From contig JAJZIX010000002.1 in assembly GCA_021810345.1 (NCBI GenBank), positions 11,027-75,026 on the forward strand: DNA of 64,000 nt. The letters are read 5' to 3'. A program made the translations under genes and the position numbers. Shown here in pieces: positions 10,774 to 58,610 of this stretch (position 1 is the first letter of the stretch; the number at the start of each line of letters is the position of its first letter). The notes below the pieces were generated by a model that was not told the DNA's origin, ran no database searches, and was given only the letters and a program-made list of their open reading frames with translations. This DNA comes from Nanobdellota archaeon (GTDB lineage Archaea > Nanobdellota > Nanobdellia > Parvarchaeales > Parvarchaeaceae).

Positions 10774-11518
10774 TTTTTATCTTGTCAACCTCCTTCCTCA
10801 TCTTTTTGAGGATCAGCCCACTTTTGTCCTCCTTTGAGAAGAAATCCACTTTTGCTGCTAGGCTTGTTTTTGATGCGACAACGCGCGCTATCCTCCCTTT
10901 TAGCTTGTCTGAAGCCGCTTGGATCTCAGGATGGAAGAATATGACTCCATACTTGGGAGTCCTAGCCTTTTTGCCACCGAATATCGATTTTTCCGCACCC
11001 AGCACCTGCAGCTTGCCGGAGGGCATTTCAGATAGGTTTTTTAAGCTCCCGGACAATGATATCAGCTTTGCAGCGATATCCGGACCCGCAACCTTGAACA
11101 AGTTTATGTAGTTTTCTTCAAGGATTGAGCCTATCTTCAGCTCTATCATTGTTCTTAGACCGGATAAGCCCACCAGCTGGTTGAAGCTGTCGGTTATGGC
11201 CGATAAATCAGAATCTGATAAATTATATCCCATGCTATCGGCAGAGATCCCCAAATAAGAGGATATCTCGTCTCTCTTTACTCCTTTGGACAGCGCCGAG
11301 ATGAATGCTTCTTTGTCCCTTATCAGGTCTGCGGCCTCTGGAAAGTATAAGAAGTATGTATCAAAAAGCGCCTTAAAAAGTGTGTTTTCGGCTTTCTTCG
11401 TCTCCGACTCCATCGAAACAAGCTTTCTTATGAAATCATCCAGAGACAGCTGCTCTTTTATCCGCTTCTTGGCTTCCTCAACGTATTTTGAATTGTCAGA
11501 GTCCGGTTTGTCGTTCAT
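10763..11518 (-). CDS. nop5: Nop5/Nop56-family C/D box snoRNP protein, short form (Nop domain present, N-terminal and coiled-coil region reduced)
   Basis: Has the C-terminal Nop domain (LKNLSEMPSGKLQVLGAEKSIFGG...GVIFFHPEIQ). It is only 251 aa, against ~400 aa for canonical archaeal Nop5. It overlaps the fibrillarin start. Confidence 0.75.
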   Translation of the reverse strand: MNDKPDSDNSKYVEEAKKRIKEQLSLDDFIRKLVSMESETKKAENTLFKALFDTYFLYFPEAADLIRDKEAFISALSKGVKRDEISSYLGISADSMGYNLSDSDLSAITDSFNQLVGLSGLRTMIELKIGSILEENYINLFKVAGPDIAAKLISLSGSLKNLSEMPSGKLQVLGAEKSIFGGKKARTPKYGVIFFHPEIQAASDKLKGRIARVVASKTSLAAKVDFFSKEDKSGLILKKMRKEVDKIKNGT

Positions 11519-39713: not shown

Positions 39714-40301
39714 CTATTTCAACAGCCTATTAACCCCATCTCTTGTGTATTTATTTGTTTTTTTAAGGTATCTCTCTAATTTATTTCTGTCTAATCTCTT
39801 TATTATCTCCCTTAAAACATCATCTGGCAGTGCTGATTTAAAGTATACAAAATCTATCAACGTTTTCTCTATGTCAGAAACCGGCATAAATCTATCTTTT
39901 ACTCTTTTTGGTTCATAACCAAAGAACATCTTCTTTTGAATATGCCTTATAATTATATTCCTACCAAGTATACTTCTCATACCTGTCCTGACCTTTCTTG
40001 TCGTTATTATAACTGGATTTGTTCCCTGCCCCCACAAGCCCTGCAAAGATAAAGCTTCTTGCAGACCATAATAAAATGGCTCGAATATGAAGCCTACAAT
40101 ATCCAAATCCTCATCAAATGAGTAGTACCCTCTCTTTAATCTTTTTATTTCACCTTTCTTTCTCAGATTATAAAGCATAAGCCTTGCATAATCCTTGCTT
40201 GCTCCCCCCTGCATTAAAAACAGTTCTGCATCCTTGATAGAGAAGTACTTCCTGCCACTAAAATGATCCATAAACTCTTTCTTATATTTTATTCTGCCCA
40301 T
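39714..40301 (-). CDS. AbiEi-like antitoxin/transcriptional regulator (type IV TA system)
   Basis: The N-terminal region LMLYNLRKKGEIKRLKRGYYSF matches the AbiEi wHTH RGxY signature. It overlaps the end of the upstream AbiEii-like gene by 13 nt. Confidence 0.5.
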   Translation of the reverse strand: MGRIKYKKEFMDHFSGRKYFSIKDAELFLMQGGASKDYARLMLYNLRKKGEIKRLKRGYYSFDEDLDIVGFIFEPFYYGLQEALSLQGLWGQGTNPVIITTRKVRTGMRSILGRNIIIRHIQKKMFFGYEPKRVKDRFMPVSDIEKTLIDFVYFKSALPDDVLREIIKRLDRNKLERYLKKTNKYTRDGVNRLLK

Positions 40302-40927
40302 ATCTTCAATGCTTCCAACATCTCCTGAAAAGTAGGTACCTTCCCCTCATAAATTATCGCTTTAAGATCACCTTCATCAACCGGTTCATCTATTTTTAAT
40401 AAAGATTTTTTAACAGACTCCTTTGTTCTTTTGTTATCTACGAATCTAGAAAGGAAATAAACATCATAGATATCCCTTATTTTACGCCTATTGTTGTAGG
40501 CTGACATCTTTTCCAGAATTAATTCCTCTGGCTTCAATGTCAATACTTCTATAGAACTACCATTTGCTTTTTGATAAGTCTTTAGAGTCCCGTGTATATT
40601 TTTTCTAGTTATCTCCAGGCTCATATGAGTAACATCATTCGATATTCGAGAGAAAAGAGTATTTGCAGTCTGTCTAAATTTTAATAGCTTTAAACCTCTT
40701 TTTTTCAATTCATTTTCTAACTTCGCCTTAAGATCCGCAGGATAATTGGTGTATAAATCTATGTCCTCCGAGAACCTTTTGCCACCATAACACCTCCATA
40801 TGGCTGTCCCTTCATGGATTACTGCATTGTCCCATAACGTATATACAACTTCTATCATTTCATCCTGCAATTCGGCTAACTCTTTTTGCGATTCCCTTTT
40901 GAGCTTGTAAATTATCGGAAATTCCAT
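40289..40927 (-). CDS. AbiEii-like nucleotidyltransferase toxin (DUF1814 family)
   Basis: Has the motif HEGTAIWRCYGGKRFSEDIDLY (GGTAL...R(F/L)SEDID(F/L)), diagnostic of AbiEii nucleotidyltransferases. It is 212 aa, shorter than the typical length. Confidence 0.6.
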   Translation of the reverse strand: MEFPIIYKLKRESQKELAELQDEMIEVVYTLWDNAVIHEGTAIWRCYGGKRFSEDIDLYTNYPADLKAKLENELKKRGLKLLKFRQTANTLFSRISNDVTHMSLEITRKNIHGTLKTYQKANGSSIEVLTLKPEELILEKMSAYNNRRKIRDIYDVYFLSRFVDNKRTKESVKKSLLKIDEPVDEGDLKAIIYEGKVPTFQEMLEALKIWAE

Positions 40928-47242: not shown

Positions 47243-48250
47243 ATGGCTGAAAGCATTTTTCGTATAAAAAAAGCAGTTAATGGAATAAAAGGTAGACGGC
47301 TAGGCTTAAGTGGGCCGATTAAGATACAAAGTGTGAAACAAATAAAGTCAGGAGAAACGCATTACAATTATCTTCTTATAATAAATAGCAGGAACTTTCT
47401 GTTGAGACTGACCTCGGTAAGAAAAGACAATAAAGGCAAAAACAGTTGGGGAGCAGCCCGTATAAACATGGAATTTGACGGGATAAAAAGCATAGAAAAA
47501 CTTGGGATAGCTCCAAAGGTCCATTATAAGGATACTTCCTGCAGGGTTCTAAGCAAACCATTTGTCATATCCGATTATGTTCCGGGCGAACCAGTCATAA
47601 GAACGACTAAGAAAGACTTAAAATCGCTTGCCTTCCTTCTTGCAGAGCTGCATAGGATACACGATGTAAATGGATTAAGAAGTGAGCCGGTTAAAGATTA
47701 CAATAAGGGATACATTAAAAAAAGAGTTGACATGATAACTGATACTGGTTTTAGATATGTAAACAGGCATTTCAAAACAGATTTAATGGAAGCGCACAGG
47801 AAGATAGAACATATAAGGCTGAAAAAGCAAAAACTATCTTTAATACACGGCGATATAAGCAAAGACAACCTACTGCGCACGGAAAACGGCCTGAAACTTA
47901 TAGACTGGGAAAGCGTTAGGCTTTCGGAACCGCAGTTCGAGATCGCTACAGCATTGGAGAGATTGAATCTCAACGGCCAGAAGAGAAAGCTTTTCCTCTC
48001 AGAGTACTTAAAACACTCAGAAAAAGCAAGTTTAGACGAACTTGAAGACTACGAAAAAATAAGGTGTTTTGATAGATTGCTGTGGGCTATTTCTGAATTT
48101 GTAAAACTGAAAGAAGAGATAACGGAAAAGGAGAAGGCAAGACAGAAATCCCCATCAAAATACGTAGATAATGCTCATCTGGAATTCTTGAGGTGCAAAT
48201 CTTTGGGGTTGTTTCCCAAAGAATCTGTCTTGATAATACACCAAAAGTAG
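47243..48250 (+). CDS. Aminoglycoside phosphotransferase / choline-ethanolamine kinase-like (APH fold) protein
   Basis: Catalytic loop LIHGDISKDNLL (HGDxxxxN) and metal-binding IDWES. Confidence 0.65.
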   Translation: MAESIFRIKKAVNGIKGRRLGLSGPIKIQSVKQIKSGETHYNYLLIINSRNFLLRLTSVRKDNKGKNSWGAARINMEFDGIKSIEKLGIAPKVHYKDTSCRVLSKPFVISDYVPGEPVIRTTKKDLKSLAFLLAELHRIHDVNGLRSEPVKDYNKGYIKKRVDMITDTGFRYVNRHFKTDLMEAHRKIEHIRLKKQKLSLIHGDISKDNLLRTENGLKLIDWESVRLSEPQFEIATALERLNLNGQKRKLFLSEYLKHSEKASLDELEDYEKIRCFDRLLWAISEFVKLKEEITEKEKARQKSPSKYVDNAHLEFLRCKSLGLFPKESVLIIHQK

Positions 48251-48388
48251 ATCTTTAATCTACTTTTATCTAAAGGAGTATTACACATCCCATTAAGTCG
48301 TAGACTTTAGACTTATCTGCAAGAGATCCGTTTGTCGCATCAGAATATTTGTTGCTGATGCTTATAAGTAGAAAAGATATAAATATGT

Positions 48389-49168
48389 ATGGTGTTTACA
48401 CTGTCGTCTGGATTTAATTCCTTAATAGCTTTAAAATATACATTCCCGATTTTAGTAGCTATTCTAATTCTTCTCTTTTTTGGATTCTCATATAATTTAT
48501 ATAAATTATATAGATCTAAAAAGATTGGGAAAAACTTAGTAAAAAACAAAATAGAATATAAAGAAAATGTTAAAACAGAGATTAAAGATAAAAACTTAAT
48601 AAAAAATGAAGGAGGGATAAATAAAGATTCTGATATGAAATATAAATATGGATATACCGCAAATGTGCCGGTAACAAAACCAACGTCCAAGCTTTTGGTA
48701 TTAGTTTCATTAACGATAATACTGGTTAGTTTACTAATGCCAGCAATATCAATACTTGGATTCCAAATAGACTTATACCAGATATACCAAATTATCTTTG
48801 AAGGAATAATAAATAACTCGTTGTCTTTACAAAGCCTAATTGGGTCTCAATCTAGTGGAGCGACCTCAGTTCCAATCTTTCCTTTGATGCTTCTAGGAAG
48901 CAGCTTGATCTTATATATAACATCTATAATAGTTATCTCACTTGGTATAAAATTCAGAAAGTTAACACTGCTGGCAGGGATAATAAGCATATTTTATAGT
49001 ATATTTTTCATTGTAGGTTTAAACCTTATATCAACAATATCTAATATTCCGTTCTCTGTTGTTGGATTTGGGATATACCTTGGTATTGTATCGGGTGTAC
49101 TTATAATAATAAGTTATTACATCGAAAAAGGGAATATAACTAATTTTTATAAAAGTAGTCAAGTGTAA
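48389..49168 (+). CDS. Hypothetical polytopic membrane protein with a Lys-rich loop
   Basis: 259 aa with 5-6 hydrophobic helices, in an AT-rich region. Confidence 0.45.
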   Translation: MVFTLSSGFNSLIALKYTFPILVAILILLFFGFSYNLYKLYRSKKIGKNLVKNKIEYKENVKTEIKDKNLIKNEGGINKDSDMKYKYGYTANVPVTKPTSKLLVLVSLTIILVSLLMPAISILGFQIDLYQIYQIIFEGIINNSLSLQSLIGSQSSGATSVPIFPLMLLGSSLILYITSIIVISLGIKFRKLTLLAGIISIFYSIFFIVGLNLISTISNIPFSVVGFGIYLGIVSGVLIIISYYIEKGNITNFYKSSQV

Positions 49169-49172
49169 TGAA

Positions 49173-49394
49173 ATGAAAGATAAAAGAAAACCCTTTGATT
49201 ATTGCAGAGGTATTGCAAATTTTTTGTATGCCAATTTTCTAGAAAAAATTAAAAAATGCGGCCTAGTTTCATTAGATTTATGGTATATTCAAAAATGTCT
49301 TCGATGTCTTATTCTAGAATTTATTAAAAACTTAAAAGATCTTGAAAATGAATTTTTGGCGGAACATGTAAGTGATAATCAGATCGCAGAGTAA
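49173..49394 (+). CDS. Hypothetical small protein (73 aa)
   Basis: ORF only. Confidence 0.25.
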   Translation: MKDKRKPFDYCRGIANFLYANFLEKIKKCGLVSLDLWYIQKCLRCLILEFIKNLKDLENEFLAEHVSDNQIAE

Positions 49395-49586
49395 ATATCT
49401 AATAAATTTATTGAGGTTTATTTATATGATATTATAATATAAAATATAGTATTAATATATATATTTTTATATATTTATTACAAATATCTAATTCTTTATT
49501 AGCATATTAATTTTATTATATATAAAATTCTATAATAATCGTATATTTAAATCAAGATAGCATCTTAAGTATAATAGCTTAATTTT

Positions 49587-50087
49587 ATGGTCACTAAAGC
49601 TCTCAAAAGGTACGAATTGGAGAAAGGCGCAAAGATACTTATTGCCATCGGATTGCTGCTTATCCTAATCTCCTGGATACTTGCAATCGATTATATTTCT
49701 GTAAACCAGATAGCAAAGGACCGGCTTGCACTGCTTCCGATACCTTTGATATTCACTGCCGTAGCGGCCATTCTTCTTCTAGTCATAAAATATAGGTATA
49801 CGCTGTTTGAGAAATACCCTTACTTAATGAATCTGCCATCTATATTTTACCGTATTGGCAGAGGAAAAGACACAAAGAAACAAAGCATGGCATTCAATAT
49901 GATCTTTACAGTCCATTCGTTGGTATTGACATTTTTGGGCCTGTTAAGTATCCTTTTAACCCTGTCAATAGGCTCCAATGCTAAGACAAGCTCCCCCTTT
50001 TTCTATTCATATTTTGTAGTTATTGCTGTCCTTATAATTTCGGTTTTCCTTATATATCGTAGAATTTACATCAAGCTTAGAAGCTAA
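49587..50087 (+). CDS. Hypothetical membrane protein (4 TM)
   Basis: Hydrophobic helices. Preceded by a ~190-nt extremely AT-rich gap. Confidence 0.45.
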   Translation: MVTKALKRYELEKGAKILIAIGLLLILISWILAIDYISVNQIAKDRLALLPIPLIFTAVAAILLLVIKYRYTLFEKYPYLMNLPSIFYRIGRGKDTKKQSMAFNMIFTVHSLVLTFLGLLSILLTLSIGSNAKTSSPFFYSYFVVIAVLIISVFLIYRRIYIKLRS

Positions 50088-50183
50088 TACAGTTAGAGGA
50101 TCAATCTAAAAGAAAGGTATTTATACCCAACCATATCATTACTTTAATATAATAAATTTGGAGGATAAATTACGGCAAAACGA

Positions 50184-50290
50184 TCGACCTTGGAGGAGTT
50201 TTTAACGTATGAAGTCAAAAAATTTGAATGATTGCCTGGAAGCTGAGCCAAAGAAGTCGCGTTTCGTAAAGACTAAGCACCTCTTAGGCA
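50184..50290 (+). repeat. Copy A of a ~90-100-nt direct repeat (RBS plus first 26 codons); copy B lies at 50840-50936
   Basis: 69 consecutive identical nt (aaaaatttgaatgattgcc...cacctctta). The flanking codons differ only synonymously, and both copies have ttggag(g/a)ag upstream. Confidence 0.9.
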
Positions 50291-50829
50291 TATTGGGCCT
50301 GGGTTCAGGAACTGGGTTAGTAGAGATTGACACTCTGGACAGATTAAATGATGTCGGAGCTGTAACAACCCCTACCTCTGTATCCTATACTCCTGGAGGG
50401 CATTACCTCTTAAGAGATCTCGCAGATAATCCAATATATCACGATTTATCGCATTTTTTCGTTAATATAGGTATTTCCGGCGGTCCGAACAATACTCTGG
50501 GCATACTTGCAGCTGCAGCGGCGCTTACTATTGGAGGTTTATCAGCAAGATCATACATAAAAGATACTAAAAACTCTTCTAATACTAAACCAAGTCTCAA
50601 AAAGGCAGCGATATCATCGGCATTTCTAGCAGGCGGCATTTACATAGGATCACAGTCATTTCTTCCGGTGGTTAATGATGTGTTATACAAAGCCCCTATA
50701 TCAACATTGGGGTATGCAGCTGCGGGGGCTGTAGGGGTATTGAGTAGCATATATCTTGGAATCGACTACCTAAAGGCCAGGCACGCGTATAAAAAGCAGG
50801 ATGGAAATGCGTACCTAAAAGATACTTGA
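50209..50829 (+). CDS. Hypothetical protein with three Gly/Ala-rich (glycine-zipper-like) hydrophobic segments; its N-terminal 30 aa are shared with the next gene
   Basis: N-terminus MKSKNLNDCLEAEPKKSRFVKTKHLL(G)ILG. Segments such as TLGILAAAAALTIGGL, LAGGIYIGSQSFL and LGYAAAGAVGVLSSIYLG. GGAGGAG upstream. Confidence 0.5.
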   Translation: MKSKNLNDCLEAEPKKSRFVKTKHLLGILGLGSGTGLVEIDTLDRLNDVGAVTTPTSVSYTPGGHYLLRDLADNPIYHDLSHFFVNIGISGGPNNTLGILAAAAALTIGGLSARSYIKDTKNSSNTKPSLKKAAISSAFLAGGIYIGSQSFLPVVNDVLYKAPISTLGYAAAGAVGVLSSIYLGIDYLKARHAYKKQDGNAYLKDT

Positions 50830-50856
50830 TAGGGGGCCACAAAAATTGGAGAAGTA

Positions 50857-51461
50857 TGAAATCGAAAAATTTGAATGATTGCCTGGAAGCTGAGCCAAAG
50901 AAGTCGCGTTTCGTAAAGACTAAGCACCTCTTAAGTATATTAGGCGGGGATAAAATTATAACACCCTTTAAAAATAGGGTGGATAGCCGCAAGCTTAGAC
51001 ATAAAAAGGGCCAGCCAGTCGGATATAAAGATGTAAAAGATTACCTAGATGGGTTTTTGCAATATTTCGATAAGATTTATTCGGGTGTTACAGGGATAGT
51101 ACTATATGGTTCAATGGCTAGGGGTACGGGCAGGATAGACAGTGATATAGATTTATTGTTTTTCACCGATGATGAGGACAAAACCTATCAGAAAATCGAG
51201 CAGTGTAAAGGCGATTTCTCGTCTGGAGAATACGCAGATTTACTCATTTGTAGAGGCCTGCCTCGAGTTCGGCTGTCTACAGCCATGATGCTAAACAGTG
51301 AATTTGAGCGGATCGTAGAGATATGTCGTAGGAGTGGAGGCGGACTTGCGTACAACTATGCAGATGACGGCATTGTACTCTATGATGCGGGTGGCCGGAC
51401 AAAGAGATACTTAGAAGAACTGCGGACTGAACCTCATATAAAAGACATGATTATACCTTAA
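50857..51461 (+). CDS. Minimal nucleotidyltransferase (Pol beta superfamily, MNT-like) carrying the same N-terminal 30-aa leader as the preceding gene
   Basis: Nucleotidyltransferase motif GIVLYGSMARGTGRIDSDIDLLFF. The start is set at the ATG (MKSKNL) preceded by GGAG rather than the TTG at 50826 used by the ORF track. Confidence 0.6.
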
Positions 51462-51610
51462 GCAGACAAATTCTCCTCCCAGGAGAAAGTAAACCTTTCA
51501 AAGTTCCTAATGGACACACGACAGAAGAATAAATCAGATGTATAATTCTATAAGTAACATGTATAAAAAGTAATACACAAAGCACAATAAAACCCTTAAA
51601 CATATAACTA

Positions 51611-51626
51611 AAATTATATATACTTA
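51611..51626 (+). promoter_or_regulatory. Putative archaeal TATA box (aaattatatatactt) ~28 nt upstream of the mntA-like ATG, implying a leaderless transcript
   Basis: An AT-rich TATA-like octamer at the canonical distance from the start codon. Inferred, not verified. Confidence 0.3.
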
Positions 51627-51645
51627 TAGTTACCTATAATTAACT

Positions 51646-52059
51646 ATGAGTACGACGATACAAATAGATGATGATTTAAGAAAAAGGCTGGAAGAGCTTA
51701 AGAAGCATAAAAGAGAATCTTTAAATGAAGTTATCCATAAAATAATCGCTAAATTACCAAAGAAAATAGCTCCTAACGATGTCGAAAACCTGAAGAAGAT
51801 AGCTGTGCCTGTGCTCAAAGGTTATGGAGTAGAGAAAGCGGCAGTTTTCGGGTCATTCGCAAGAGGCGATGCGACAGAAAATAGCGATATAGACCTATTA
51901 GTGAAATACAAAGAAGGCACTTCCCTGTTTGATGTAGTAAGACTCCAAAATCGTTTAGAAGCGGAACTAGGAAGAAAAGTAGATCTGGTTTCGTATGACT
52001 TTATAGACAAATATATAAGAGAACGTATACTTAAGGAGAGCATTTCCTTATATGAATGA
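51646..52059 (+). CDS. mntA: MntA-like minimal nucleotidyltransferase antitoxin with an N-terminal ribbon-helix-helix extension
   Basis: N-terminus TIQIDDDLRKRLEELKK is RHH-like. Nucleotidyltransferase motif AAVFGSFARGDATENSDIDLLV. Overlaps the downstream HEPN gene by 8 nt. Confidence 0.75.
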   Translation: MSTTIQIDDDLRKRLEELKKHKRESLNEVIHKIIAKLPKKIAPNDVENLKKIAVPVLKGYGVEKAAVFGSFARGDATENSDIDLLVKYKEGTSLFDVVRLQNRLEAELGRKVDLVSYDFIDKYIRERILKESISLYE

Positions 52060-52396
52060 AAAAGATGATTTAGTCTATTTAGGCCATATAATAGATGCGA
52101 TAAATGGGATAAAAGAATACACAAATGGAATGAAAAAGGAGGGCTTCTTGAAGGATAGAAAGACACAGGATGCAGTTATCAGAGAGATAACGATAATAGG
52201 GGAAGCAACAGCGTTTATAAGCGATCTATTCAAAGAAAAACATAGCAGCATACCTTGGACGGAAATGAAGGGAACAAGAAATAGAATTGTACATGGCTAC
52301 TTTTCAATAGATCTTAACATAGTATGGCAGCTAATAATCAGGGATCTACCAGAGCTTGAAATTAAGCTCAAAGAATTAGCAAATGAAGGCAATTAA
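52052..52396 (+). CDS. hepT: HepT-like HEPN (DUF86) RNase toxin
   Basis: Has the Rx4HxY motif RNRIVHGY and the conserved SIPW region. Size and position after an MNT fit a type VII MntA/HepT module. Confidence 0.75.
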   Translation: MNEKDDLVYLGHIIDAINGIKEYTNGMKKEGFLKDRKTQDAVIREITIIGEATAFISDLFKEKHSSIPWTEMKGTRNRIVHGYFSIDLNIVWQLIIRDLPELEIKLKELANEGN

Positions 52397-52492
52397 TCTT
52401 TAGCCTTTTGTAGAGATTTACTTGATTTAGAAGAGAAAACTATAAATAGTATATAAGTTTATATAATAATATTAATAAGTATTACAACAATT

Positions 52493-52765
52493 ATGACAAA
52501 GAATGTAAATGAGGTATTGCATTATCCTAGACTTGATACAGTATTGATGATTGAGGAGGCGATAAAAAACGCTAAAGAGTACCCCTCAAAAAGACAACTT
52601 TGGCTTTCATTGAAGAAAAAGGTCATGTATCAAACTTTTAACATAGTTATAGATTATTTGGTAGAGTCAAACAAAGTGGTCATCGATAAGGAAGGCAAGG
52701 TTATTTGGATATGGGATCCGGAAGGCGTAAAAAAGTATATGAAAGAGGGGGTAATAATACGATGA
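52493..52765 (+). CDS. Hypothetical protein (90 aa)
   Basis: ORF with a TATA-like tttatataat ~28 nt upstream; no recognisable motif. Confidence 0.4.
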   Translation: MTKNVNEVLHYPRLDTVLMIEEAIKNAKEYPSKRQLWLSLKKKVMYQTFNIVIDYLVESNKVVIDKEGKVIWIWDPEGVKKYMKEGVIIR

Positions 52766-52852
52766 AGCAAATAAATGTGGTTCTAGTTGATAAAAAACTT
52801 GAAAATCAAAACTTTACAGATAGGAGTAGCATAATAAAGTTAGAAGTTTAAT

Positions 52853-53254
52853 ATGACAAAATACAAGACACTAAAAAGCGCTGTTTTAGGCAAAAATGGG
52901 GGTGTTTGCTGGGTTTTGCTCACGATAGGTATTGTTCTATCACTTGTGGGGTTCACCGTAATGCCGTGGATAAATATAGTATATGGGGGATTAGTAAATC
53001 ATCTTGCCGGGGTTATAATAGGTTTTTTGCTAATGGCAGTAGGTATATCTATTCTCCTTTTGCTATATCCAAAACTTAATAGTATAAAGCTTAAGCAATC
53101 AAAAGAAAGAAAAAGATTCGTTTATGGACTGGCTATATTTTTGATAATAGCTATCTTTAGTCAGATACCACTGCTTATTTTAGTTTCCAGTACTTTACAA
53201 CTGTTCTCCGCAGAACTGATATTAGGAATATTACTAGGGATGTTTTTGCTATAG
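52853..53254 (+). CDS. Hypothetical membrane protein (4 TM, 133 aa)
   Basis: Hydrophobic helices. Confidence 0.45.
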   Translation: MTKYKTLKSAVLGKNGGVCWVLLTIGIVLSLVGFTVMPWINIVYGGLVNHLAGVIIGFLLMAVGISILLLLYPKLNSIKLKQSKERKRFVYGLAIFLIIAIFSQIPLLILVSSTLQLFSAELILGILLGMFLL

Positions 53255-53430
53255 TGTTTAGGGAGCGAAGTAAACACATTTATCCTTTTGGGAGAAAAGG
53301 GAAGCACTTGATTCTGTTATTTTACGATTTACCCATTAAAGGTATCCTGCGACGAAACATCCCCATCAAACGCCACTTAAGTATAATTCTATGGCTTTTC
53401 GTATGTTTTTTATGTGTTTTTTAGTGGTTT

Positions 53431-53466
53431 TGAGGTCTTGATTTCTACCTTTACAGGGTATCCAGC
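53431..53466. repeat. Conserved ~25-35-nt element (tatgttttt..gag..cttgatttctacctttacagg) downstream of paralog A; a second copy at 54111-54140 abuts the stop of paralog B
   Basis: Direct comparison of the two loci. 21 of 21 nt are identical in the core ttgatttctacctttacagg. Confidence 0.8.
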
Positions 53467-53529
53467 TTACACTTAAAGACTAATTGAAACCTGCAAAAAT
53501 TGGTAAATTCAGCTACTTTCCTACAGAGC

Positions 53530-54042
53530 TCACTGTCTGGAAGCTTCTTCGTCGTCAACTATTTTTTGCACAGTAGGTTTCTGGCGCGCTACTTGTTTCC
53601 GAGCTTCGGGGGATACGGGGCTTTTTATGTATCCATCTGCCTCGTTTTCCAGTAGTTTCTCCCAATTACCTGGCTTATAATTGTAAATATGAATGCCACC
53701 AGATTCATAAACATGCAAGCTCAATACATTGTGCCGCTTAGTCCCAAAAAAGCCATTTGGGATTATATCTACACTTAAAAATGAGAGGTAATCACTCGGT
53801 TTTTTGTATTCGATTCCAAATAAGGCCCCTCCCACATTAATATCTGCTTTATAACTACCCTGCTCATCAATGCATCCCTTATTTCTTTCACTTTGATAAG
53901 TTAGCAGCATTTTCGAAATAGAATACAACTTATTGACTCTTTTTAGTCGTTTTTCCCCTTCGGCCCTCAATAACTCATCTAAAGAAGTATCCCCCCCATC
54001 ATTTTTCTGTATATAGCCATCAGTCTCCATTATCCCCACCAT
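53530..54042 (-). CDS. Hypothetical protein, paralog A of an unrecognised family (170 aa)
   Basis: Shares ERNKGCIDEQGSYKADIN and NYKPGNWEKLLEN with the 54138-54983 protein. Conserved 5' flank ggtataaatt-ATG and 3' motif. Confidence 0.5.
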   Translation of the reverse strand: MVGIMETDGYIQKNDGGDTSLDELLRAEGEKRLKRVNKLYSISKMLLTYQSERNKGCIDEQGSYKADINVGGALFGIEYKKPSDYLSFLSVDIIPNGFFGTKRHNVLSLHVYESGGIHIYNYKPGNWEKLLENEADGYIKSPVSPEARKQVARQKPTVQKIVDDEEASRQ

Positions 54043-54137
54043 AATTTATACCTTATACTTGCTACTATTTAATATCTTAGAAAACAACTGATATAAATAT
54101 CTTATGTTTTTGAGCTTTGATTTCTACCTTTACAGGA

Positions 54138-54983
54138 TCATATGAGAACACTCTGGTTCTCCAGTAGTTTCTCCCAATTACCGGGCTCATAAACATCTAA
54201 CTTTATACGTTTACTCCTCTCATCTTTACTTGCGCTTAACACCATATCTGGGTTAAAATATCCACGGACACCCCCTCGGCTCAAATCTACGGTTAAATGT
54301 GAATAAGTAATATGATCATGGTACATGACTATGAATAACCCTTCTTTAGTTCTAACACCCAGTAGGTAATCTGTGTAATGCTGATCTGGCCCTTCTTTTT
54401 TCAGGCCCTTACTGATTACTAGGGGCACCAAGTTGTCGTATAAATTTCTAGCTTTTTTTAGCCTATTGTACATCTCATTCTTTAATACTTCATCGAGATA
54501 TTTTATCGATGTCTTTATTGTATTACCTTTCGGTGTTAGCTTTCTATACTCCTTTTCTAAAGCATCCTCACATTTGTCTGGCGTGTAAGAATAGAGATAG
54601 AAATCCTCGTTTTTAAAGTACGACAAAGCCGCTACTCCTTTCAGTACATGCCTAAAGATACTCTTTTGATACACATACGTTCCTATAAAAGATTTATTGG
54701 GCTTTTGAGGATCATTAGAATACGTTATAACAAGAGGTTTCTTTTCCGAAGAGATATCTGCCATGTAAGAACCCTCCTTATTAATGTATCCCTTATTTTT
54801 CTCCGCCCGATCAATTAGTAATTCTAATGAAGCTCCAATTAATTTTTCAGCTCGTTGTATTCTTAGTTTCTCTTCTTCGGTTTGTACTGCGGGAACTGTG
54901 AAAACTTCTATTCCCAACAGTTCTGCTAAACTTTTTCCATTTATCTTACCTAAAAGGTTAACTTCATTTCTGCGTTGCGCCAT
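54138..54983 (-). CDS. Hypothetical protein, paralog B of the same unrecognised family (281 aa, with a ~110 aa central insertion)
   Basis: Shares EKNKGYINKEGSYMADIS and VYEPGNWEKLLENQ with paralog A. Same conserved flanks. Confidence 0.5.
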   Translation of the reverse strand: MAQRRNEVNLLGKINGKSLAELLGIEVFTVPAVQTEEEKLRIQRAEKLIGASLELLIDRAEKNKGYINKEGSYMADISSEKKPLVITYSNDPQKPNKSFIGTYVYQKSIFRHVLKGVAALSYFKNEDFYLYSYTPDKCEDALEKEYRKLTPKGNTIKTSIKYLDEVLKNEMYNRLKKARNLYDNLVPLVISKGLKKEGPDQHYTDYLLGVRTKEGLFIVMYHDHITYSHLTVDLSRGGVRGYFNPDMVLSASKDERSKRIKLDVYEPGNWEKLLENQSVLI

Positions 54984-55309
54984 AATTTATACCTACATTT
55001 ATGAATTACTACAGAATGCAACCAATATAAATACTTTACTATTATGTAAGTAGTTAATAAATTATATTATCAGATTTTCCACATTTTGGCTAGATTTTCC
55101 GCATAAAATGCTTTACTCGTCTGTATCTTCAAGTGAGGAAAATCGAAATTATTGTAAATAAACAATCTATGTTCCTCTGTGTCTAATCTTGGTACGGTGC
55201 TCCTCCCAGAAGCCATTTATTCCGTACTTTATGGCGATCGCCCCTAGAACAGCGGTAGCTAAAGAAACACCTTGTATAACTCTTGTCCATGCGTGGCAAA
55301 TCACCATTC

Positions 55310-55570
55310 TTATATCTTTCGAGATCCATTCGATAGATGTAACCTTTCCCCCCTTCTTTTTGATATATTGATAGTATAAGCCAAATCATACTTTGGGGTG
55401 AAGGTACAAGCCAAATCATCCTTTTGGGTGAAGGATTTTCTATATACTAAGGTGGACATTTCTAAACAGTATAACGCCCCATCGTAGTCCTTTTGCCTTA
55501 TACCAGCACTAGCCAGATCAAACCATCTGGTAGCGCTATCCATTGCTTTTTTAGACACTATTCTTTCCAT
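55310..55570 (-). CDS. Hypothetical small protein downstream of an MNT gene, possibly a divergent mini-HEPN partner; contains an in-frame 30-nt tandem duplication
   Basis: 86 aa, overlapping the end of the 55558-56145 nucleotidyltransferase by 13 nt. The N-terminal helix (ATRWFDLASAGIRQKDYDGALYCLEMS) and the C-terminal RRGERLH (Rx4-6H-like) are HEPN-like but weak. Confidence 0.3.
   Translation of the reverse strand: MERIVSKKAMDSATRWFDLASAGIRQKDYDGALYCLEMSTLVYRKSFTQKDDLACTFTPKYDLAYTINISKRRGERLHLSNGSRKI
55381..55440. repeat. Tandem duplication of a 30-nt unit (ccaaatcatactttggggtgaaggtacaag / ccaaatcatccttttgggtgaaggattttc)
   Basis: Read directly. In frame within the 55310-55570 ORF (DLACTFTPKYDLAYT). 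Confidence 0.85.
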
Positions 55571-56145
55571 TCCAGTACCAAATTATTACCCATTTTTACC
55601 CAGGCATATCTTATTTTCTTAAGATTGCTAATAAATTCACTTAATATTCCATCTTTTTCATATAATATTGTCCCCTCCTCTAATAATGATATATAAAATG
55701 GTCTAAACTCTGCTAGATCCTCTTTCTTTAAAATAACCTCACTTATGTACAGATGTAATCCTTTTGCAACTAATTTCTGTCTCATGGGATCAATTTCCTT
55801 AATTATTTGCTCTAACTTATCGAAATAGGTTAATACGTTTCCATCAACAACGACTAATATGTCTATGTCACTATAACTATTAAAAGTTCCCCGAGCAATT
55901 GATCCAAAAAGCATAATTCCAAGAACATTTTTATCCTGTTTAACCTGGTCTACAAATGTTAAGATATAATTTTGTATATCCATGTCTAATTTCAAAAAAT
56001 TTACTTTTTTCTTTATAAATTCATTAATAACATCAGAAAATGTAACTTTTTTATTCGACTTTGTCTGTATCATGGCCTTTGCATCAACAAGTGCATTATA
56101 CGCATTTTTATCAAGTAAAGTCTGCTTATATTTTTTGTTTCTCAT
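55558..56145 (-). CDS. Minimal nucleotidyltransferase (MNT family) with N-terminal RHH-like and C-terminal extensions
   Basis: Nucleotidyltransferase motif IMLFGSIARGTFNSYSDIDILVVVD. The N-terminus KKVTFSDVINEFIKKK is RHH-like. Confidence 0.7.
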   Translation of the reverse strand: MRNKKYKQTLLDKNAYNALVDAKAMIQTKSNKKVTFSDVINEFIKKKVNFLKLDMDIQNYILTFVDQVKQDKNVLGIMLFGSIARGTFNSYSDIDILVVVDGNVLTYFDKLEQIIKEIDPMRQKLVAKGLHLYISEVILKKEDLAEFRPFYISLLEEGTILYEKDGILSEFISNLKKIRYAWVKMGNNLVLEWKE

Positions 56146-56316
56146 ATGTGTTATGTATACATCATATATATAAAAGTTAATTCAAAAATAAGATATTATT
56201 GCTTTTCAGATGAAATATTATTAGATACTTTAATCAAATACCACTTAATTATAAGATTATTACGAAATTTTGATTATCAAAATAAACTAAAAGCCCAACG
56301 ACTAGAGAGATAAAGC

Positions 56317-56880
56317 TTATATTGTCTTTACTTCTTTCTTCCTTTTATCTCTTAATTCAAATATAACCGCTTGTATCTTCTTAGCTTCATCAACATTTAA
56401 TGCTCTAAGATAATTTACACTTGATATACGCGCATTATTTAACACTATCATCCCACCAATAGGAGATATATATAGAGAGGTTAATCCTAATATCCTATCT
56501 GCAATAGATCTGTTCATCACAACATCTTGGACCATCTCAAGAGGTAATGAATCTACCGAGTAACCTATTATACCTCTTCCGCTTATTAGCCTATTATTTG
56601 TTATCCAGTATCTATATTTATTGTAAGATACTATAGAAACGAAAATCCCAATTAGTATAACGGCAAACATAATACCAAAGAAGGATATAAGAATATATGG
56701 AGTTGGAAGAGGTGGAGTACCGGTTGCTAAGAGTAAGGAGCTAAAAACCGCAATAATAATACCAGCTATAACCACTCCAATGAATCTCTGCAGTATGAAA
56801 CCCCTTTTGTTTGGTCTAACCTCGTATTCTATAGTTTCCCCTTGCTGCAAAGAAAAAGGTAATTCTGCTTCTGTCGCCAT
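56317..56880 (-). CDS. Bacterial-PH (bPH_2/DUF304, YdbS/YdbT-like) domain membrane protein
   Basis: Two TM helices follow an N-terminal cytoplasmic stretch, then a PH-like C-terminal domain; the layout is typical of DUF304. Confidence 0.5.
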   Translation of the reverse strand: MATEAELPFSLQQGETIEYEVRPNKRGFILQRFIGVVIAGIIIAVFSSLLLATGTPPLPTPYILISFFGIMFAVILIGIFVSIVSYNKYRYWITNNRLISGRGIIGYSVDSLPLEMVQDVVMNRSIADRILGLTSLYISPIGGMIVLNNARISSVNYLRALNVDEAKKIQAVIFELRDKRKKEVKTI

Positions 56881-57283
56881 TATAATAAGCTGTTTATAAG
56901 ATATTTAAGCTTTTCTGCATAGTATAAATATGCTAAATAATGGGTTAATCGTTATAATAAATAAATTAATATTAAGATAATATTATTGTTATCTATATAT
57001 TGAATATTATATCACTTTATTTATAATAAGCCTGACGCTTTTGCTGCTTTTTATAAGGCAGATGATGATAATTATAGTATTGATTATAATATTATAAATA
57101 ATAAAATAGTACTATCGAATTTAATATTATTTTATCATACTATATATTTGAATAATCCTTGTGCGTATGCAGTTATCCCAACCAATATAGTGTATGTGTA
57201 ATTCGTAGAAAAATAAATTATTACAATAATGGGATTTATTTTTATTGCCCCGCCAGCAGCAAATGTATACCGCGTCCTTTGTT

Positions 57284-57892
57284 TTAGCTCTTTTTATTTG
57301 ACTTGCCGTTGTCATTAGACTTTTTATCTCTAAGCTCTTCTCTCAAAAAATTGTATATTACTGGTGCAGCGCTGAGCAATGATAGTGGTATTACTAAAGA
57401 GGCATATGTAAGCTGACTGAAATAATTGTACATCCCGCTGTCTAACATATAATTATGTGCGGTGACGACTGTTTCAGCTAATCCTACCCCAAGATAAAGA
57501 CTACTTGTTACTTTCTTTTGGCTTAAACGTGAATACTTATGAGCGAGTGCTCCGAGTAAGTAGCCTCCATACAGGAAAAGGAACATGCTTGAGACCGCTT
57601 CTGGTATAAGTCCCAGTTTCTGTATAAAAATTGATGGGGCGTAGTTACCCTCATGCAATCCCTTATACTCTATGCCGAAGTATGTTGAAATCCTATCGGC
57701 GAGCATCGTAATAGCAGAAAATGAAAAGGCGTACTTTGATTGTTTTATTGCATTTTTTATTGATATTAGGTGCTTGTACAAAGAATTCTTAACCCTGTGC
57801 CCAAAATTATATCTCTTGTTTACAGGATTAGATGCATTGTATTCATACCCGTTTTGGCTGCTCTCATCGAGCAGGTTGTCGAGAGAATGCAT
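57284..57892 (-). CDS. Hypothetical membrane protein (202 aa)
   Basis: Hydrophobic helices and a Lys/Asn-rich C-terminus. Adjacent to the 57896 gene. Confidence 0.4.
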   Translation of the reverse strand: MHSLDNLLDESSQNGYEYNASNPVNKRYNFGHRVKNSLYKHLISIKNAIKQSKYAFSFSAITMLADRISTYFGIEYKGLHEGNYAPSIFIQKLGLIPEAVSSMFLFLYGGYLLGALAHKYSRLSQKKVTSSLYLGVGLAETVVTAHNYMLDSGMYNYFSQLTYASLVIPLSLLSAAPVIYNFLREELRDKKSNDNGKSNKKS

Positions 57893-57895
57893 TGC

Positions 57896-58333
57896 TCAAG
57901 GCGAATATCCAGAGCCAGACAGTCCATTTATGTATTGATCTAATACTCTGTCTATAACTCCCTTATTTATAAGATATTTTGCGGACTTAACCAATGCGTT
58001 GGAAGATCTGTTAATGCGGCTGTTATATATGAAACCGACCATCCCGGCCACCATAATTCCTGTGGTTAACGCCGATCCGTCTACTAATGTCATCAGTGCC
58101 CCGCCAGCAGCCATTGTAGCGGTTAGTGCCGTAATACTGTTGTATAATGCATTTGGGTTGTAGCCGGCCTTTACTGCAGTATCTCTCACATAAGAATCGA
58201 ATGCATATTTCGTCATTACATTAGGGAATCCCAAATTGGACAGGTAGTTTCTTTCCTTTAATATTACTTTATTTATCTTCTCTGCGGGTACACCGTTCGC
58301 TTTTAGAAGATCTGCAAGTTTTTTTGATACCAT
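57896..58333 (-). CDS. Hypothetical protein (145 aa) with a Gly/Ala-rich hydrophobic segment
   Basis: ORF carrying the segment TATMAAGGALMTLVDGSALTTGIMVAGMVGFI. Confidence 0.4.
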   Translation of the reverse strand: MVSKKLADLLKANGVPAEKINKVILKERNYLSNLGFPNVMTKYAFDSYVRDTAVKAGYNPNALYNSITALTATMAAGGALMTLVDGSALTTGIMVAGMVGFIYNSRINRSSNALVKSAKYLINKGVIDRVLDQYINGLSGSGYSP

Positions 58334-58610
58334 AGTTCAACCTCCTATTATCTAACTTTTCATTACTATTAAAGGATTATACTGGTATATAAAGTTTTAG
58401 GCATGGGAAAGTATTTAAAGATGCTAAAATAATATCTAAATAATGGAGAAGAAAGAAAAGGTCGATAAGAATTCAAAGGACGAAGCTGGTTGCCCTTGCG
58501 GTGGGAGCTGTGGCTGCTCAGATTTCTATTGACGGCAGTTAGACATTTACAGATTTGTTATATTCAATAGTAGAAAGTTTTATATATAACCAGCCGTCAA
58601 TGATAATCAA

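What the first reader, a model, noticed from the sequence alone, without database searches (positions are those of the whole stretch)
50209..56145. Dense toxin-antitoxin/defence-type cluster: three minimal nucleotidyltransferases, one canonical HepT, and a tail of unknown genes
Within 6 kb there are three Pol-beta minimal nucleotidyltransferases (50857, 51646, 55558). Two of them carry N-terminal ribbon-helix-helix extensions. Only one (51646) has an obvious HEPN partner, HepT with RNRIVHGY. The other two have non-canonical neighbours: the Gly-zipper protein sharing the leader, and an 86-aa weakly HEPN-like ORF with an internal 30-nt duplication. Two paralogous unknown proteins and small membrane proteins sit between them. 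Orphan or re-partnered nucleotidyltransferases in one island suggest module shuffling, and possibly nucleotidyltransferase partners other than HEPN.
Basis: partly seen in the sequence, partly recalled or inferred. Interest (0 to 1): 0.6.

Follow-up and report, generated by a model that had tools for sequence, protein, structure and literature searches.

The report
Patchwork, partly decayed toxin-antitoxin island
This stretch of an acid-mine "ARMAN"-type archaeal genome is a low-GC patchwork holding one intact toxin-antitoxin pair, one pair whose toxin gene was cut off by a deletion, and one lone nucleotidyltransferase; this is ordinary toxin-antitoxin island biology, with one small open question.

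Summary
Related contigs explain most of the oddities.

1. 51646-52396 is a canonical HepT/MntA (type VII) pair. An RHH (DUF7557) domain is fused to the antitoxin.
2. The 195-aa transferase belongs to a family that, in five lineages, is followed by an overlapping ~135-aa PF05168 HEPN gene. Here a clean 573-bp deletion removed HEPN codons 40-136. It fused the stump in frame to a decaying neighbour gene. The "86-aa HEPN-like ORF" is that scar, and it recurs identically in 13 contigs.
3. The 201-aa transferase belongs to a tiny family seen only in ARMAN-type archaea. None of eight neighbourhoods has an adjacent HEPN, and four have the Gly-zipper gene. Its "leader" copies the junction between a 138-aa membrane gene (deleted here) and the Gly-zipper gene, so it is a recombination scar.

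The 48-58 kb stretch is a low-GC mosaic with breakpoints at short conserved linkers. Module shuffling is supported. A non-HEPN partner is refuted for one transferase and unproven for the other.

The parts
49587..50087 (+). 166-aa multi-pass membrane protein, the conserved left neighbour of the cluster. Its 3' end and downstream sequence (50043-50120) recur as an inverted repeat in relatives.
   Evidence: 99% identical to the L018 protein and 86% to the L019 and L007 proteins. Hydropathy. In L007, 51-nt inverted repeats at 7905-7955 and 10819-10869 flank the NTase195-HEPN block.
50207..50298 (+). Copy 1 of the 92-nt leader repeat: the start codon and first 30 codons of the Gly-zipper gene.
   Evidence: 95% identical to copy 2; substitutions among homologous leaders are mostly synonymous or conservative (my count from the alignment), so it is translated.
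50209..50829 (+). 206-aa Gly-rich ('Gly-zipper') protein with at least two hydrophobic segments. No known domain.
   Evidence: No Pfam, NCBIfam or PADLOC hit. TM-like segments at residues 95-117 and 167-188, 10.7% Gly. Orthologues in L018 (97%), L019 (94%) and L017 (84%). In those loci a 136-139-aa Gly-rich membrane gene overlaps its start by 23 nt; 358 bp of that gene are deleted here.
50825..50945 (+). Copied gene junction: the last ~17 codons of the (absent) 138-aa gene in another frame, plus copy 2 of the leader (50854-50945), now forming the N-terminus of the 201-aa transferase.
   Evidence: the upstream CCACAAAAA(A)TTGGAGAAGT matches the 3' end of the 138-aa gene in L018. tblastn of L018 138-aa residues 122-138 hits 50825-50875.
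50856..51461 (+). 201-aa MNT-type nucleotidyltransferase (GSX10DXD intact), a member of a small solo-transferase family. It lies 26 nt after the Gly-zipper gene.
   Evidence: PF01909 E=4e-10. Homologues of 165-175 aa lack the leader. AlphaFold model: residues 1-46 disordered, core pLDDT about 77-94. Best PDB matches are MNT antitoxins and HalB, core only, TM 0.30-0.36 by query length.
51517..51604 (+). Remnant of the 3' end (last 18 codons) and downstream sequence of a 127-aa membrane-protein gene that follows the transferase in L018.
   Evidence: 100% identical to L018 2773-2860. tblastn.
51646..52059 (+). MntA-type antitoxin: N-terminal RHH (DUF7557) fused to a minimal nucleotidyltransferase (GSFARGDATENSDID).
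   Evidence: PF18765 E=2e-17; DUF7557 33.4 bits (cut-off 25). PADLOC PDC-S09 E=6e-28. NCBIfam MntA 55.1 bits (cut-off 60).
52052..52396 (+). HepT toxin (HEPN RNase of the DUF86/HepT-like family) with RX4HXY (RNRIVHGY). It overlaps the antitoxin gene by 8 nt.
   Evidence: PF01934 E=2e-30. 92% identical to the L019 HepT.
52493..52765 (+). 90-aa protein of unknown function that follows the toxin gene in three different TA contexts.
   Evidence: 80% identical to the L003 gene after HepT, and 59% to the L011 gene after ParE. No confident Pfam or PDB match.
52853..53254 (+). 133-aa multi-pass membrane protein.
   Evidence: Homologous DNA in L008.
53283..53484 (+). Conserved ~202-nt non-coding linker between convergent genes. 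Both of its ends coincide with synteny breakpoints.
   Evidence: About 73-87% DNA identity (98% to the near-identical L018) in L001, L003, L007-9, L017, L018, L022, L023 and L030, next to different genes. L011 and L013 carry a diverged copy, found by pattern and alignment only. No Rfam match. No stable or covarying fold. No consistent reading frame.
53530..54042 (-). 170-aa protein of a tiny lineage-specific family with a C-terminal Y-x-PGNWE motif.
   Evidence: Only 9 representatives with E<=0.001 among 1.84 billion proteins. Model pLDDT 60 with no significant fold match.
54138..54983 (-). 281-aa paralogue made of two tandem copies of the same domain. Absent from L007 and L018 at this position.
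   Evidence: Only two homologue clusters in the word-indexed search.
55149..55454 (-). Pseudogene remains of a 220-aa gene that is intact in L007 (9132-9794). It is missing its 5' end, carries the 30-nt tandem duplication (55369-55428), is split across reading frames, and has a 262-bp internal deletion.
   Evidence: blastn pieces L007 9266-9295, 9286-9427 and 9690-9815. tblastn. Three-frame translations, compared with the L007 protein.
55310..55570 (-). 86-aa chimeric ORF: codons 1-39 (55454-55570) are the 5' end of a PF05168 HEPN gene. The rest is read from the 220-aa pseudogene. The deletion junction is at 55454/55455.
   Evidence: Alignment to L007, L008 and L010 breaks at this point. Junction sequences show a 573-bp deletion with 1-nt microhomology. 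The intact L007 partner is PF05168, E=7e-9. The identical ORF is on 13 contigs.
55558..56145 (-). 195-aa MNT-type nucleotidyltransferase (GSIARGTFNSYSDID) with an N-terminal RHH-like extension. It is the antitoxin half of a class II MNT-HEPN module, now orphaned.
   Evidence: PF01909 E=1.5e-13. 97% identical to P0003, whose gene is followed by an intact HEPN. dN/dS against L007 is 0.14.

Best explanation
The region is a low-GC, fast-rearranging accessory island in an uncultured acid-mine DPANN archaeon. A near-identical (≥90%) cluster member is labelled Candidatus Parvarchaeota. It holds three MNT-type nucleotidyltransferase genes in three different states.

**(a) 51646-52396: an intact type VII HepT/MntA module.**
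- Inferred from the characterised family: HepT is an RNase with an RX4HXY site.
- MntA uses its GSX10DXD site to AMPylate the motif tyrosine and so silence the toxin.
- The fused RHH domain probably autoregulates the operon.

**(b) 55558-56145: the antitoxin half of a class II MNT-HEPN (PF05168) module.**
- A 573-bp deletion removed HEPN codons 40-136.
- The stump was fused in frame to a neighbouring gene that is itself decaying.
- The 86-aa ORF is therefore a scar and the transferase is an orphan.

**(c) 50856-51461: a member of a small family of solo MNT-like transferases.**
- The family is known only from ARMAN-type archaea.
- It is probably co-transcribed with the Gly-zipper membrane-protein gene.
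- Its 30-residue leader was copied, with about 25 nt of upstream sequence, from the junction between a 138-aa membrane gene and the Gly-zipper gene.
- Its substrate is unknown. I consider it most likely an MNT whose target is not encoded next to it.

**Status of the claims.** Shown: the domain calls, motifs, deletions, copied junction and synteny breaks. Inferred: all biochemical activities and the co-transcription.
For: **Domains and motifs:**

**HEPN partner in relatives.** Overlapping 135-136-aa PF05168 genes follow the 195-aa family in P0003 loci, P0007 loci, L011, P0012 and, cut by the contig end, P0010.

**Deletion.**
- Homology to L007 runs at 97% up to window 55454, then jumps 573 bp.
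- The junction shows 1-nt microhomology.
- Pseudogene pieces are mapped.
- The same scar is on 13 contigs.

**The 201-aa family.**
- There are 8 homologue clusters in 5.8 billion proteins.
- Two loci were found among the 185,579 species genomes: a Nanoarchaeota archaeon MAG and Ca. Acidifodinimicrobium mancum.
- Its structure is a plain MNT core.

**Leader origin:**

**Mosaic structure.**
- GC is 34.4% in the island against 42% in the flanks.
- There is no spare HEPN or HepT elsewhere in the window.

**Mechanism of type VII modules and the two classes:** PMC7641770.
Against: - Nothing here shows expression or activity.
- The 195-aa transferase is under purifying selection relative to L007 (dN/dS 0.14). 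It may therefore have a role without its toxin, although that branch also covers time before the deletion.
- The Gly-zipper gene is the transferase's neighbour in 4 of 8 contexts. Small Gly-rich membrane genes are nearby in six, plus a remnant in the window. This could mean a real functional link that I treat as shared ancestry.
- NCBIfam equivalog cut-offs for MntA and HepT are narrowly missed: 55.1 and 49.5 bits against 60.
Confidence: 0.78

Rival explanations
1. The transferase has been re-partnered with a non-HEPN protein. The Gly-zipper membrane protein, with the 138-aa membrane protein where present, would be a toxin or effector kept in check by the transferase. This would be analogous to type VII neutralisation or to Hailong HalB/HalA.
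For: - The Gly-zipper gene and a transferase of this family are adjacent and co-directional in the window, L018 and L019. They sit in the same cluster in L017.
- A 125-aa homologue of the 138-aa membrane protein lies next to the transferase in L022.
- The window gap is only 26 nt, with no promoter-like sequence that I can see by eye.
- No HEPN is adjacent in any of the eight contexts.
- HalB is among the best structural matches.
Against: - L011, L021 and L023 have the transferase without the Gly-zipper gene.
- Gene order differs in L017.
- All contexts come from closely related acid-mine lineages, so adjacency may be inherited rather than selected.
- The HalB match covers only the GS..DXD core: 26 bits against a cut-off of 190, TM about 0.3.
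- The Gly-zipper protein matches no HalA or other defence model.
- The shared leader is a copied junction.
Confidence: 0.12
2. The 86-aa ORF would be a functional, minimised HEPN-like partner.
For: - The ORF is conserved exactly on 13 contigs.
- It overlaps the transferase gene by 13 nt, as the intact HEPN does.
Against: - Only 39 of about 136 HEPN codons remain. The motif region (FRNVSGY in L007) is deleted.
- The remaining 47 codons come from an unrelated gene that is broken by an in-frame 30-nt duplication, changes of reading frame and a second deletion.
- The 13 contigs are near-identical overall (99.9% for L024), so they represent one population.
Confidence: 0.04
3. The extra transferases are conserved housekeeping genes. 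DPANN archaea are reported to keep an MNT-HEPN fusion in housekeeping contexts (PMC6393860).
For: - P0012's MNT-HEPN pair lies between ferredoxin/aminotransferase genes and the DNA polymerase D large subunit.
- dN/dS for the 195-aa gene is 0.14.
Against: - The close relative L018 (95-98% DNA identity in shared segments) lacks the 195-aa gene, the MntA/HepT pair and the 281-aa gene altogether.
- The families are tiny and patchy.
- The genes here are separate, not fused.
Confidence: 0.04

Closest known systems
HepT/MntA type VII toxin-antitoxin, class I (Shewanella SO_3166/SO_3165; Thermococcus cleftensis pair; PMC7641770)
   Same: Genes 51646-52396. The antitoxin comes first and overlaps the toxin. 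The MNT has GSX10DXD. The toxin has a PF01934 HepT-like domain with RX4HXY.
   Different: The antitoxin carries an N-terminal DUF7557/RHH domain. NCBIfam equivalog scores fall just under the cut-off. No activity was tested.
Class II MNT-HEPN modules (PF05168 HEPN, no RX4H, conserved Tyr; PMC7641770)
   Same: The 195-aa transferase family, with its overlapping 135-aa PF05168 partner in relatives. The partner has R-x4-Y (RNVSGY) and no His.
   Different: In this genome the HEPN gene is truncated to 39 codons by a deletion. The transferase is longer than classic MNTs (195 aa, with an RHH-like N-terminus).
Hailong anti-phage system (HalB nucleotidyltransferase plus HalA membrane channel; PDB 9dbh; Tan et al. 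2025, cited in PMC13276650)
   Same: A ~200-aa MNT-like transferase encoded next to a small membrane protein. HalB is among the best fold matches.
   Different: Similarity is limited to the shared NTase core. There is no HalA-like partner, and no defence-model hit for the membrane protein.
Decaying TA loci and orphan antitoxins, and mix-and-match of TA modules (Makarova et al. 2009, PMC2701414)
   Same: Toxin loss by deletion with the antitoxin retained. At the same syntenic slot, between a 201-family transferase gene and a homologue of the 90-aa gene, L011 carries RHH(DUF7557)-ParE where the window carries RHH(DUF7557)-MNT plus HepT.
   Different: None in principle. This is an example from a reduced DPANN genome.

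Membership tests
HepT/MntA type VII TA (class I) | Toxin with a HepT-like (DUF86, PF01934) HEPN domain above the Pfam gathering score | tested here: met
   105.5 bits against 23.5, E=1.8e-30
HepT/MntA type VII TA (class I) | RX4HXY motif in the toxin | tested here: met
   RNRIVHGY in the 114-aa product. Motif definition from PMC7641770.
HepT/MntA type VII TA (class I) | Adjacent upstream MNT with GSX10DXD | tested here: met
   GSFARGDATENSDID. PF18765 63.7 bits. 8-nt gene overlap at 52052-52059.
HepT/MntA type VII TA (class I) | NCBIfam equivalog cut-offs (NF047752 MntA, NF047751 HepT; 60 bits each) | tested here: not met
   55.1 and 49.5 bits. Just below the cut-off, so these are family members by Pfam but not NCBI equivalogs.
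HepT/MntA type VII TA (class I) | Toxin RNase activity and neutralisation by AMPylation | not testable with these tools
   Needs toxicity and rescue assays plus mass spectrometry.
Class II MNT-HEPN (PF05168) module | MNT with GSX10DXD | tested here: met
   GSIARGTFNSYSDID in the 195-aa protein. PF01909 51.4 bits.
Class II MNT-HEPN (PF05168) module | Adjacent intact PF05168 HEPN gene | tested here: not met
   The 86-aa ORF has no Pfam hit. Only codons 1-39 are HEPN-derived. Intact in relatives.
Hailong (HalB/HalA) | HalB equivalog (NF051895, cut-off 190 bits) | tested here: not met
   26.3 bits (201-aa protein) and 25.1 bits (195-aa protein), covering only the GS..DXD core. Foldseek TM about 0.30-0.34.
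Hailong (HalB/HalA) | HalA-type membrane channel encoded next to the transferase | tested here: not met
   The Gly-zipper protein has no NCBIfam, PADLOC or Pfam hit.
CBASS | CD-NTase cyclase | tested here: not met
   Only marginal hits: 16.6 bits against a cut-off of 200; PADLOC cyclase E>=0.0025.
Ribbon-helix-helix N-terminal domain on the 195-aa transferase | Detectable similarity to an RHH family | tested here: inconclusive
   No Pfam hit. hhalign against the DUF7557 set gives 17% probability, aligned in register. No PDB sequence match.

The most novel reading that the evidence does not exclude
The small ARMAN-restricted family of solo MNT-like transferases (165-207 aa) forms a previously undescribed conflict module with Gly-rich small membrane proteins (the 138-aa and 206-aa pair). 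The transferase would hold a membrane-damaging effector in check, either by nucleotidylylation or through a nucleotide-derived signal. Cassettes of this module would be exchanged at short conserved linkers: the 92-nt leader and the 202-nt non-coding element.
Probability: 0.1. Interest if true: 0.6.

Novelty: new member of a known kind. Interest (0 to 1): 0.28.

Why it matters
**What the result corrects.** An apparent "non-canonical partner" is shown to be a deletion scar. That removes a false lead, and shows that comparison with close relatives, rather than HMMs alone, resolves such cases.

**Modest positive value.**
- It documents how toxin-antitoxin modules are gained, swapped and eroded in a reduced DPANN genome. 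Examples are HepT replaced by ParE behind the same RHH domain, toxin loss with the antitoxin retained, and gene junctions copied onto other genes.
- It defines three tiny lineage-specific families: the solo MNT-like transferase, the Gly-zipper protein and the PGNWE protein.
- It defines a conserved non-coding linker that marks recombination breakpoints.
- If the transferase and the membrane protein prove to be functionally coupled, that would add a new partner type for MNT enzymes.

Tried and rejected
1. **138-aa gene as a cryptic HEPN partner.** In relatives this gene overlaps the Gly-zipper gene. Rejected: it is a Gly-rich membrane protein with no Pfam hit.
2. **Hailong or CBASS membership of the 201-aa enzyme.** Rejected on scores and on the lack of a partner.
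3. **A fused C-terminal HEPN in the 195/201-aa enzymes.** Rejected: the model shows only an MNT core plus short helices.
4. **A spare HEPN or HepT elsewhere in the window.** None found.
5. **Paralogy of the 145-aa/202-aa membrane pair (57284-58333) with the 138-aa/206-aa pair.** No significant similarity.
6. **Function of the PGNWE family (170/281 aa).**
   - Only 9 representatives in 1.84 billion proteins. One is a 4488-aa protein with a ferlin-like domain, which I take to be spurious.
   - The model is low-confidence (pLDDT 60) and its fold matches are not significant.
7. **The 202-nt element as a structured RNA, small ORF or viral sequence.**
   - No Rfam hit.
   - Consensus fold energy is about -5 kcal/mol on either strand.
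   - MFE z-scores are positive for 5 of 6 copies.
   - There is no consistent reading frame.
   - It is absent from viral contigs.
8. **Metagenome scan with the 201-aa family alignment.** It found nothing.
9. **Exact look-up of the 195-aa product.** It failed, although the protein is in the clustered collection.
10. **dN/dS of the 195-aa gene against L001.** It could not be computed because synonymous sites are saturated.

Full report
**Observation.** ORF listing and profile searches confirm the gene content. The genes are:
- 50209-50829 (+): a 206-aa Gly-rich protein with no known domain.
- 50856-51461 (+): a 201-aa Pol-beta-type nucleotidyltransferase, PF01909 E=4e-10.
- 51646-52059 (+): a 137-aa protein with a DUF7557/RHH N-terminus and an MNT domain, PF18765 E=2e-17.
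- 52052-52396 (+): a 114-aa HepT, PF01934 E=2e-30, with RNRIVHGY.
- 52493-52765 (+): a 90-aa protein.
- 52853-53254 (+): a 133-aa membrane protein.
- 53530-54042 (-) and 54138-54983 (-): paralogues of 170 and 281 aa.
- 55310-55570 (-): an 86-aa ORF with no hit.
- 55558-56145 (-): a 195-aa nucleotidyltransferase, PF01909 E=1.5e-13.

All three transferases keep GSX10DXD. The 92-nt leader repeat (95% identity) and the 30-nt tandem duplication (83% identity) are real. The region has 34.4% GC against 42% on both sides.

**Source organism.** A cluster member ≥90% identical to the 195-aa protein is labelled Candidatus Parvarchaeota archaeon (MCL5009589.1). Relatives of the 201-aa protein lie in a Nanoarchaeota archaeon MAG and in Ca. 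Acidifodinimicrobium mancum. The window therefore comes from an uncultured ARMAN-type DPANN archaeon. The same gene order is found on independent contigs from ENA, NCBI and JGI samples (L024 is 99.9% identical over 12.7 kb). The arrangement is therefore not a mis-assembly.

**The 195-aa transferase and the 86-aa ORF.**
- Homologues at 97%, 74%, 49%, 37% and 34% identity are each followed by an overlapping gene of about 135 aa. That gene is a PF05168 HEPN protein in loci L007-L010, L001-L006, L011 and L031. L032 is cut by the contig end but is 33% identical to the L007 HEPN.
- The window aligns to L007 at 97% from upstream of the transferase to window 55454, which is codon 39 of HEPN. There the homology stops.
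- blastn shows that the next window bases correspond to L007 9266 onwards, inside a 220-aa gene. L007 8693-9265 is missing.
- The junction sequences show a clean 573-bp deletion with one base of microhomology.
- Downstream, the 220-aa gene is itself broken. It carries the in-frame 30-nt duplication, its surviving pieces read in different frames, and L007 9428-9689 is also missing.
- The 86-aa ORF is thus 39 HEPN codons plus 47 codons of a pseudogene. The HEPN motif region (FRNVSGY in L007) is gone.
- No other HEPN or HepT homologue exists in the window.
- The transferase itself is intact, with dN/dS = 0.14 against L007.
- The pair corresponds to the "class II" MNT-HEPN modules of Yao et al., which have PF05168, no RX4H and a conserved Tyr (PMC7641770).

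**The canonical pair.** Genes 51646-52396 meet the sequence definition of a type VII HepT/MntA module: antitoxin first, an 8-nt overlap, GSX10DXD and RX4HXY. They narrowly miss the NCBIfam equivalog cut-offs. The best relative is in L019, with HepT 92% and MntA 66% identical.

At the equivalent slot in L011, a 201-family transferase gene is followed by DUF7557-RHH, ParE and a homologue of the 90-aa gene. The L011 RHH is 70% identical to the window's RHH. The toxin cassette has therefore been swapped behind a conserved DNA-binding domain. The 90-aa gene also follows HepT in L003.

**The 201-aa transferase.**
- The family is very small: 8 clusters in 5.8 billion proteins, two loci in 185,579 species genomes, and none in the JGI metagenome scan.
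- Members of 165-175 aa lack the leader.
- The AlphaFold model has a disordered leader (residues 1-46) and a confident MNT core. Its best matches are MNT antitoxins (7ae9, 6m6w, 8xeo) and Hailong HalB (9dbh). Only the core matches.
- I examined eight neighbourhoods: window/L024, L011-16, L017, L018, L019, L021, L022 and L023. None has an adjacent HEPN gene.
- The Gly-zipper gene is adjacent or one gene away in four of them: window, L017, L018 and L019.
- Related small Gly-rich membrane genes (138-aa and 127-aa families) are nearby in six, with only a remnant in the window.
- A paralogous 189-207-aa subfamily has lost the DXD motif: D-V-N in L018 and L019, I-D-M in L023.

**The leader.**
- Aligning all leader copies shows that the copy in front of the transferase extends about 25 nt upstream. 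That extra sequence is the 3' end of the 138-aa membrane gene, which overlaps the Gly-zipper start in L017-L020.
- In the window, 358 bp of that 138-aa gene (L018 732-1089) are deleted.
- The leader is therefore native to the Gly-zipper gene. By my count from the alignment, its substitutions among orthologues are mostly synonymous or conservative.
- The gene junction was copied onto the transferase. The same 5' junction is present in L018, fused to a different transferase body.
- Downstream of the window's transferase lie the last 18 codons of a 127-aa membrane gene, 100% identical to L018.

**Mosaic structure relative to L018** (95-98% identical in shared parts):
- The window has lost most of the 138-aa gene.
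- It has a different transferase body.
- It carries an extra 1.7-kb block with MntA, HepT, the 90-aa gene and the 133-aa gene.
- It carries a 2.8-kb block (the 281-aa gene, the pseudogene, the HEPN stump, the 195-aa transferase and a bPH_2 gene) where L018 has one 170-aa paralogue.

**Mosaic structure relative to L007.** The two paralogue genes are an insertion. In L007, 51-nt inverted repeats derived from the end of the 166-aa gene flank the block that starts with the 195-aa transferase.

**Unknown genes.**
- The 170/281-aa family has an N-terminal helix, a beta-rich core and a C-terminal Y-x-PGNWE motif. It recurs in these islands: L003, L017, L018 and L023, the last again with a double-domain form.
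- It has only nine representatives in 1.84 billion proteins.
- The structure model is weak and matches nothing significantly.
- The function of the Gly-zipper and other membrane proteins is unknown.

**Verdict.**
- "Module shuffling" is well supported.
- "Partners other than HEPN" is refuted for the 195-aa enzyme, whose toxin was lost by deletion.
- It remains unproven for the 201-aa enzyme. That enzyme is a solo MNT-like transferase, recurrently but not always next to Gly-rich membrane genes, in a narrow set of related genomes.
- Overall this is a typical, partly eroded toxin-antitoxin island. Its members are new, but they belong to known kinds.

Noticed in passing
window 53283-53484 (also L001 12824-13025, L003 5411-5612, L007 9850-10052, L018 2875-3076, L023 797-998, L022 from 6762, L011 from 7248, L030 from 1442): A ~202-nt non-coding element is conserved at roughly 73-87% DNA identity (98% in L018) beside different genes, in genomes where neighbouring proteins are only 30-50% identical. 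L011 carries a diverged copy. It contains three (G)GTATCC motifs and T-runs. Both ends coincide with synteny breakpoints. It has no Rfam hit, no stable or covarying fold, no consistent reading frame, and is absent from viral contigs. It may be a terminator and/or a recombination anchor.
   Followed up: partly
window 39714-40927 (-): An AbiEii-type nucleotidyltransferase toxin (PF08843, E=5e-16) lies next to an AbiEi-like protein (PF13338; 24.5 bits, just under the cut-off of 25). This is a fourth nucleotidyltransferase-based module, 10 kb upstream of the finding.
   Followed up: no
L011 6001-7232 compared with window 50856-52765: At the same syntenic slot, L011 has DUF7557-RHH plus a ParE toxin where the window has DUF7557-RHH fused to MNT plus HepT. 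The slot lies after a 201-family transferase gene and before a homologue of the 90-aa gene. The RHH domains are 70% identical, so the toxin cassette was swapped behind a conserved DNA-binding domain.
   Followed up: partly
L019 4308-4910, L018 1740-2363, L023 213-782: A paralogous 189-207-aa subfamily of the solo transferase has lost the catalytic DXD (D-V-N in L018 and L019, I-D-M in L023) and carries a 10-15-residue insertion after the GS motif. These are probably inactive pseudo-enzymes.
   Followed up: no
L007 7905-7955 and 10819-10869; window 50043-50120: 51-nt inverted repeats (92% complementary) flank the 2.9-kb block carrying the 195-aa transferase, HEPN and neighbours in L007. They are derived from the 3' end of the 166-aa membrane gene. 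The window keeps only one copy.
   Followed up: partly
window 48001-58400: The whole stretch is low in GC (34.4% against 42% on both sides). It is dense in small membrane-protein genes with no known domains: 259, 166, 206, 133, 202 and 145 aa, plus a bPH_2 protein at 56317-56880.
   Followed up: partly
window 53530-54983; L003, L017, L018, L023: The PGNWE-motif family (170/281 aa) is confined to these archaea, with 9 representatives in 1.84 billion proteins. It has independently formed tandem double-domain proteins in the window (281 aa) and in Ca. Acidifodinimicrobium (286 aa). Both window paralogues share a duplicated promoter-like upstream sequence (ATTTATAT ... GGTATAAATTATGG).
   Followed up: partly
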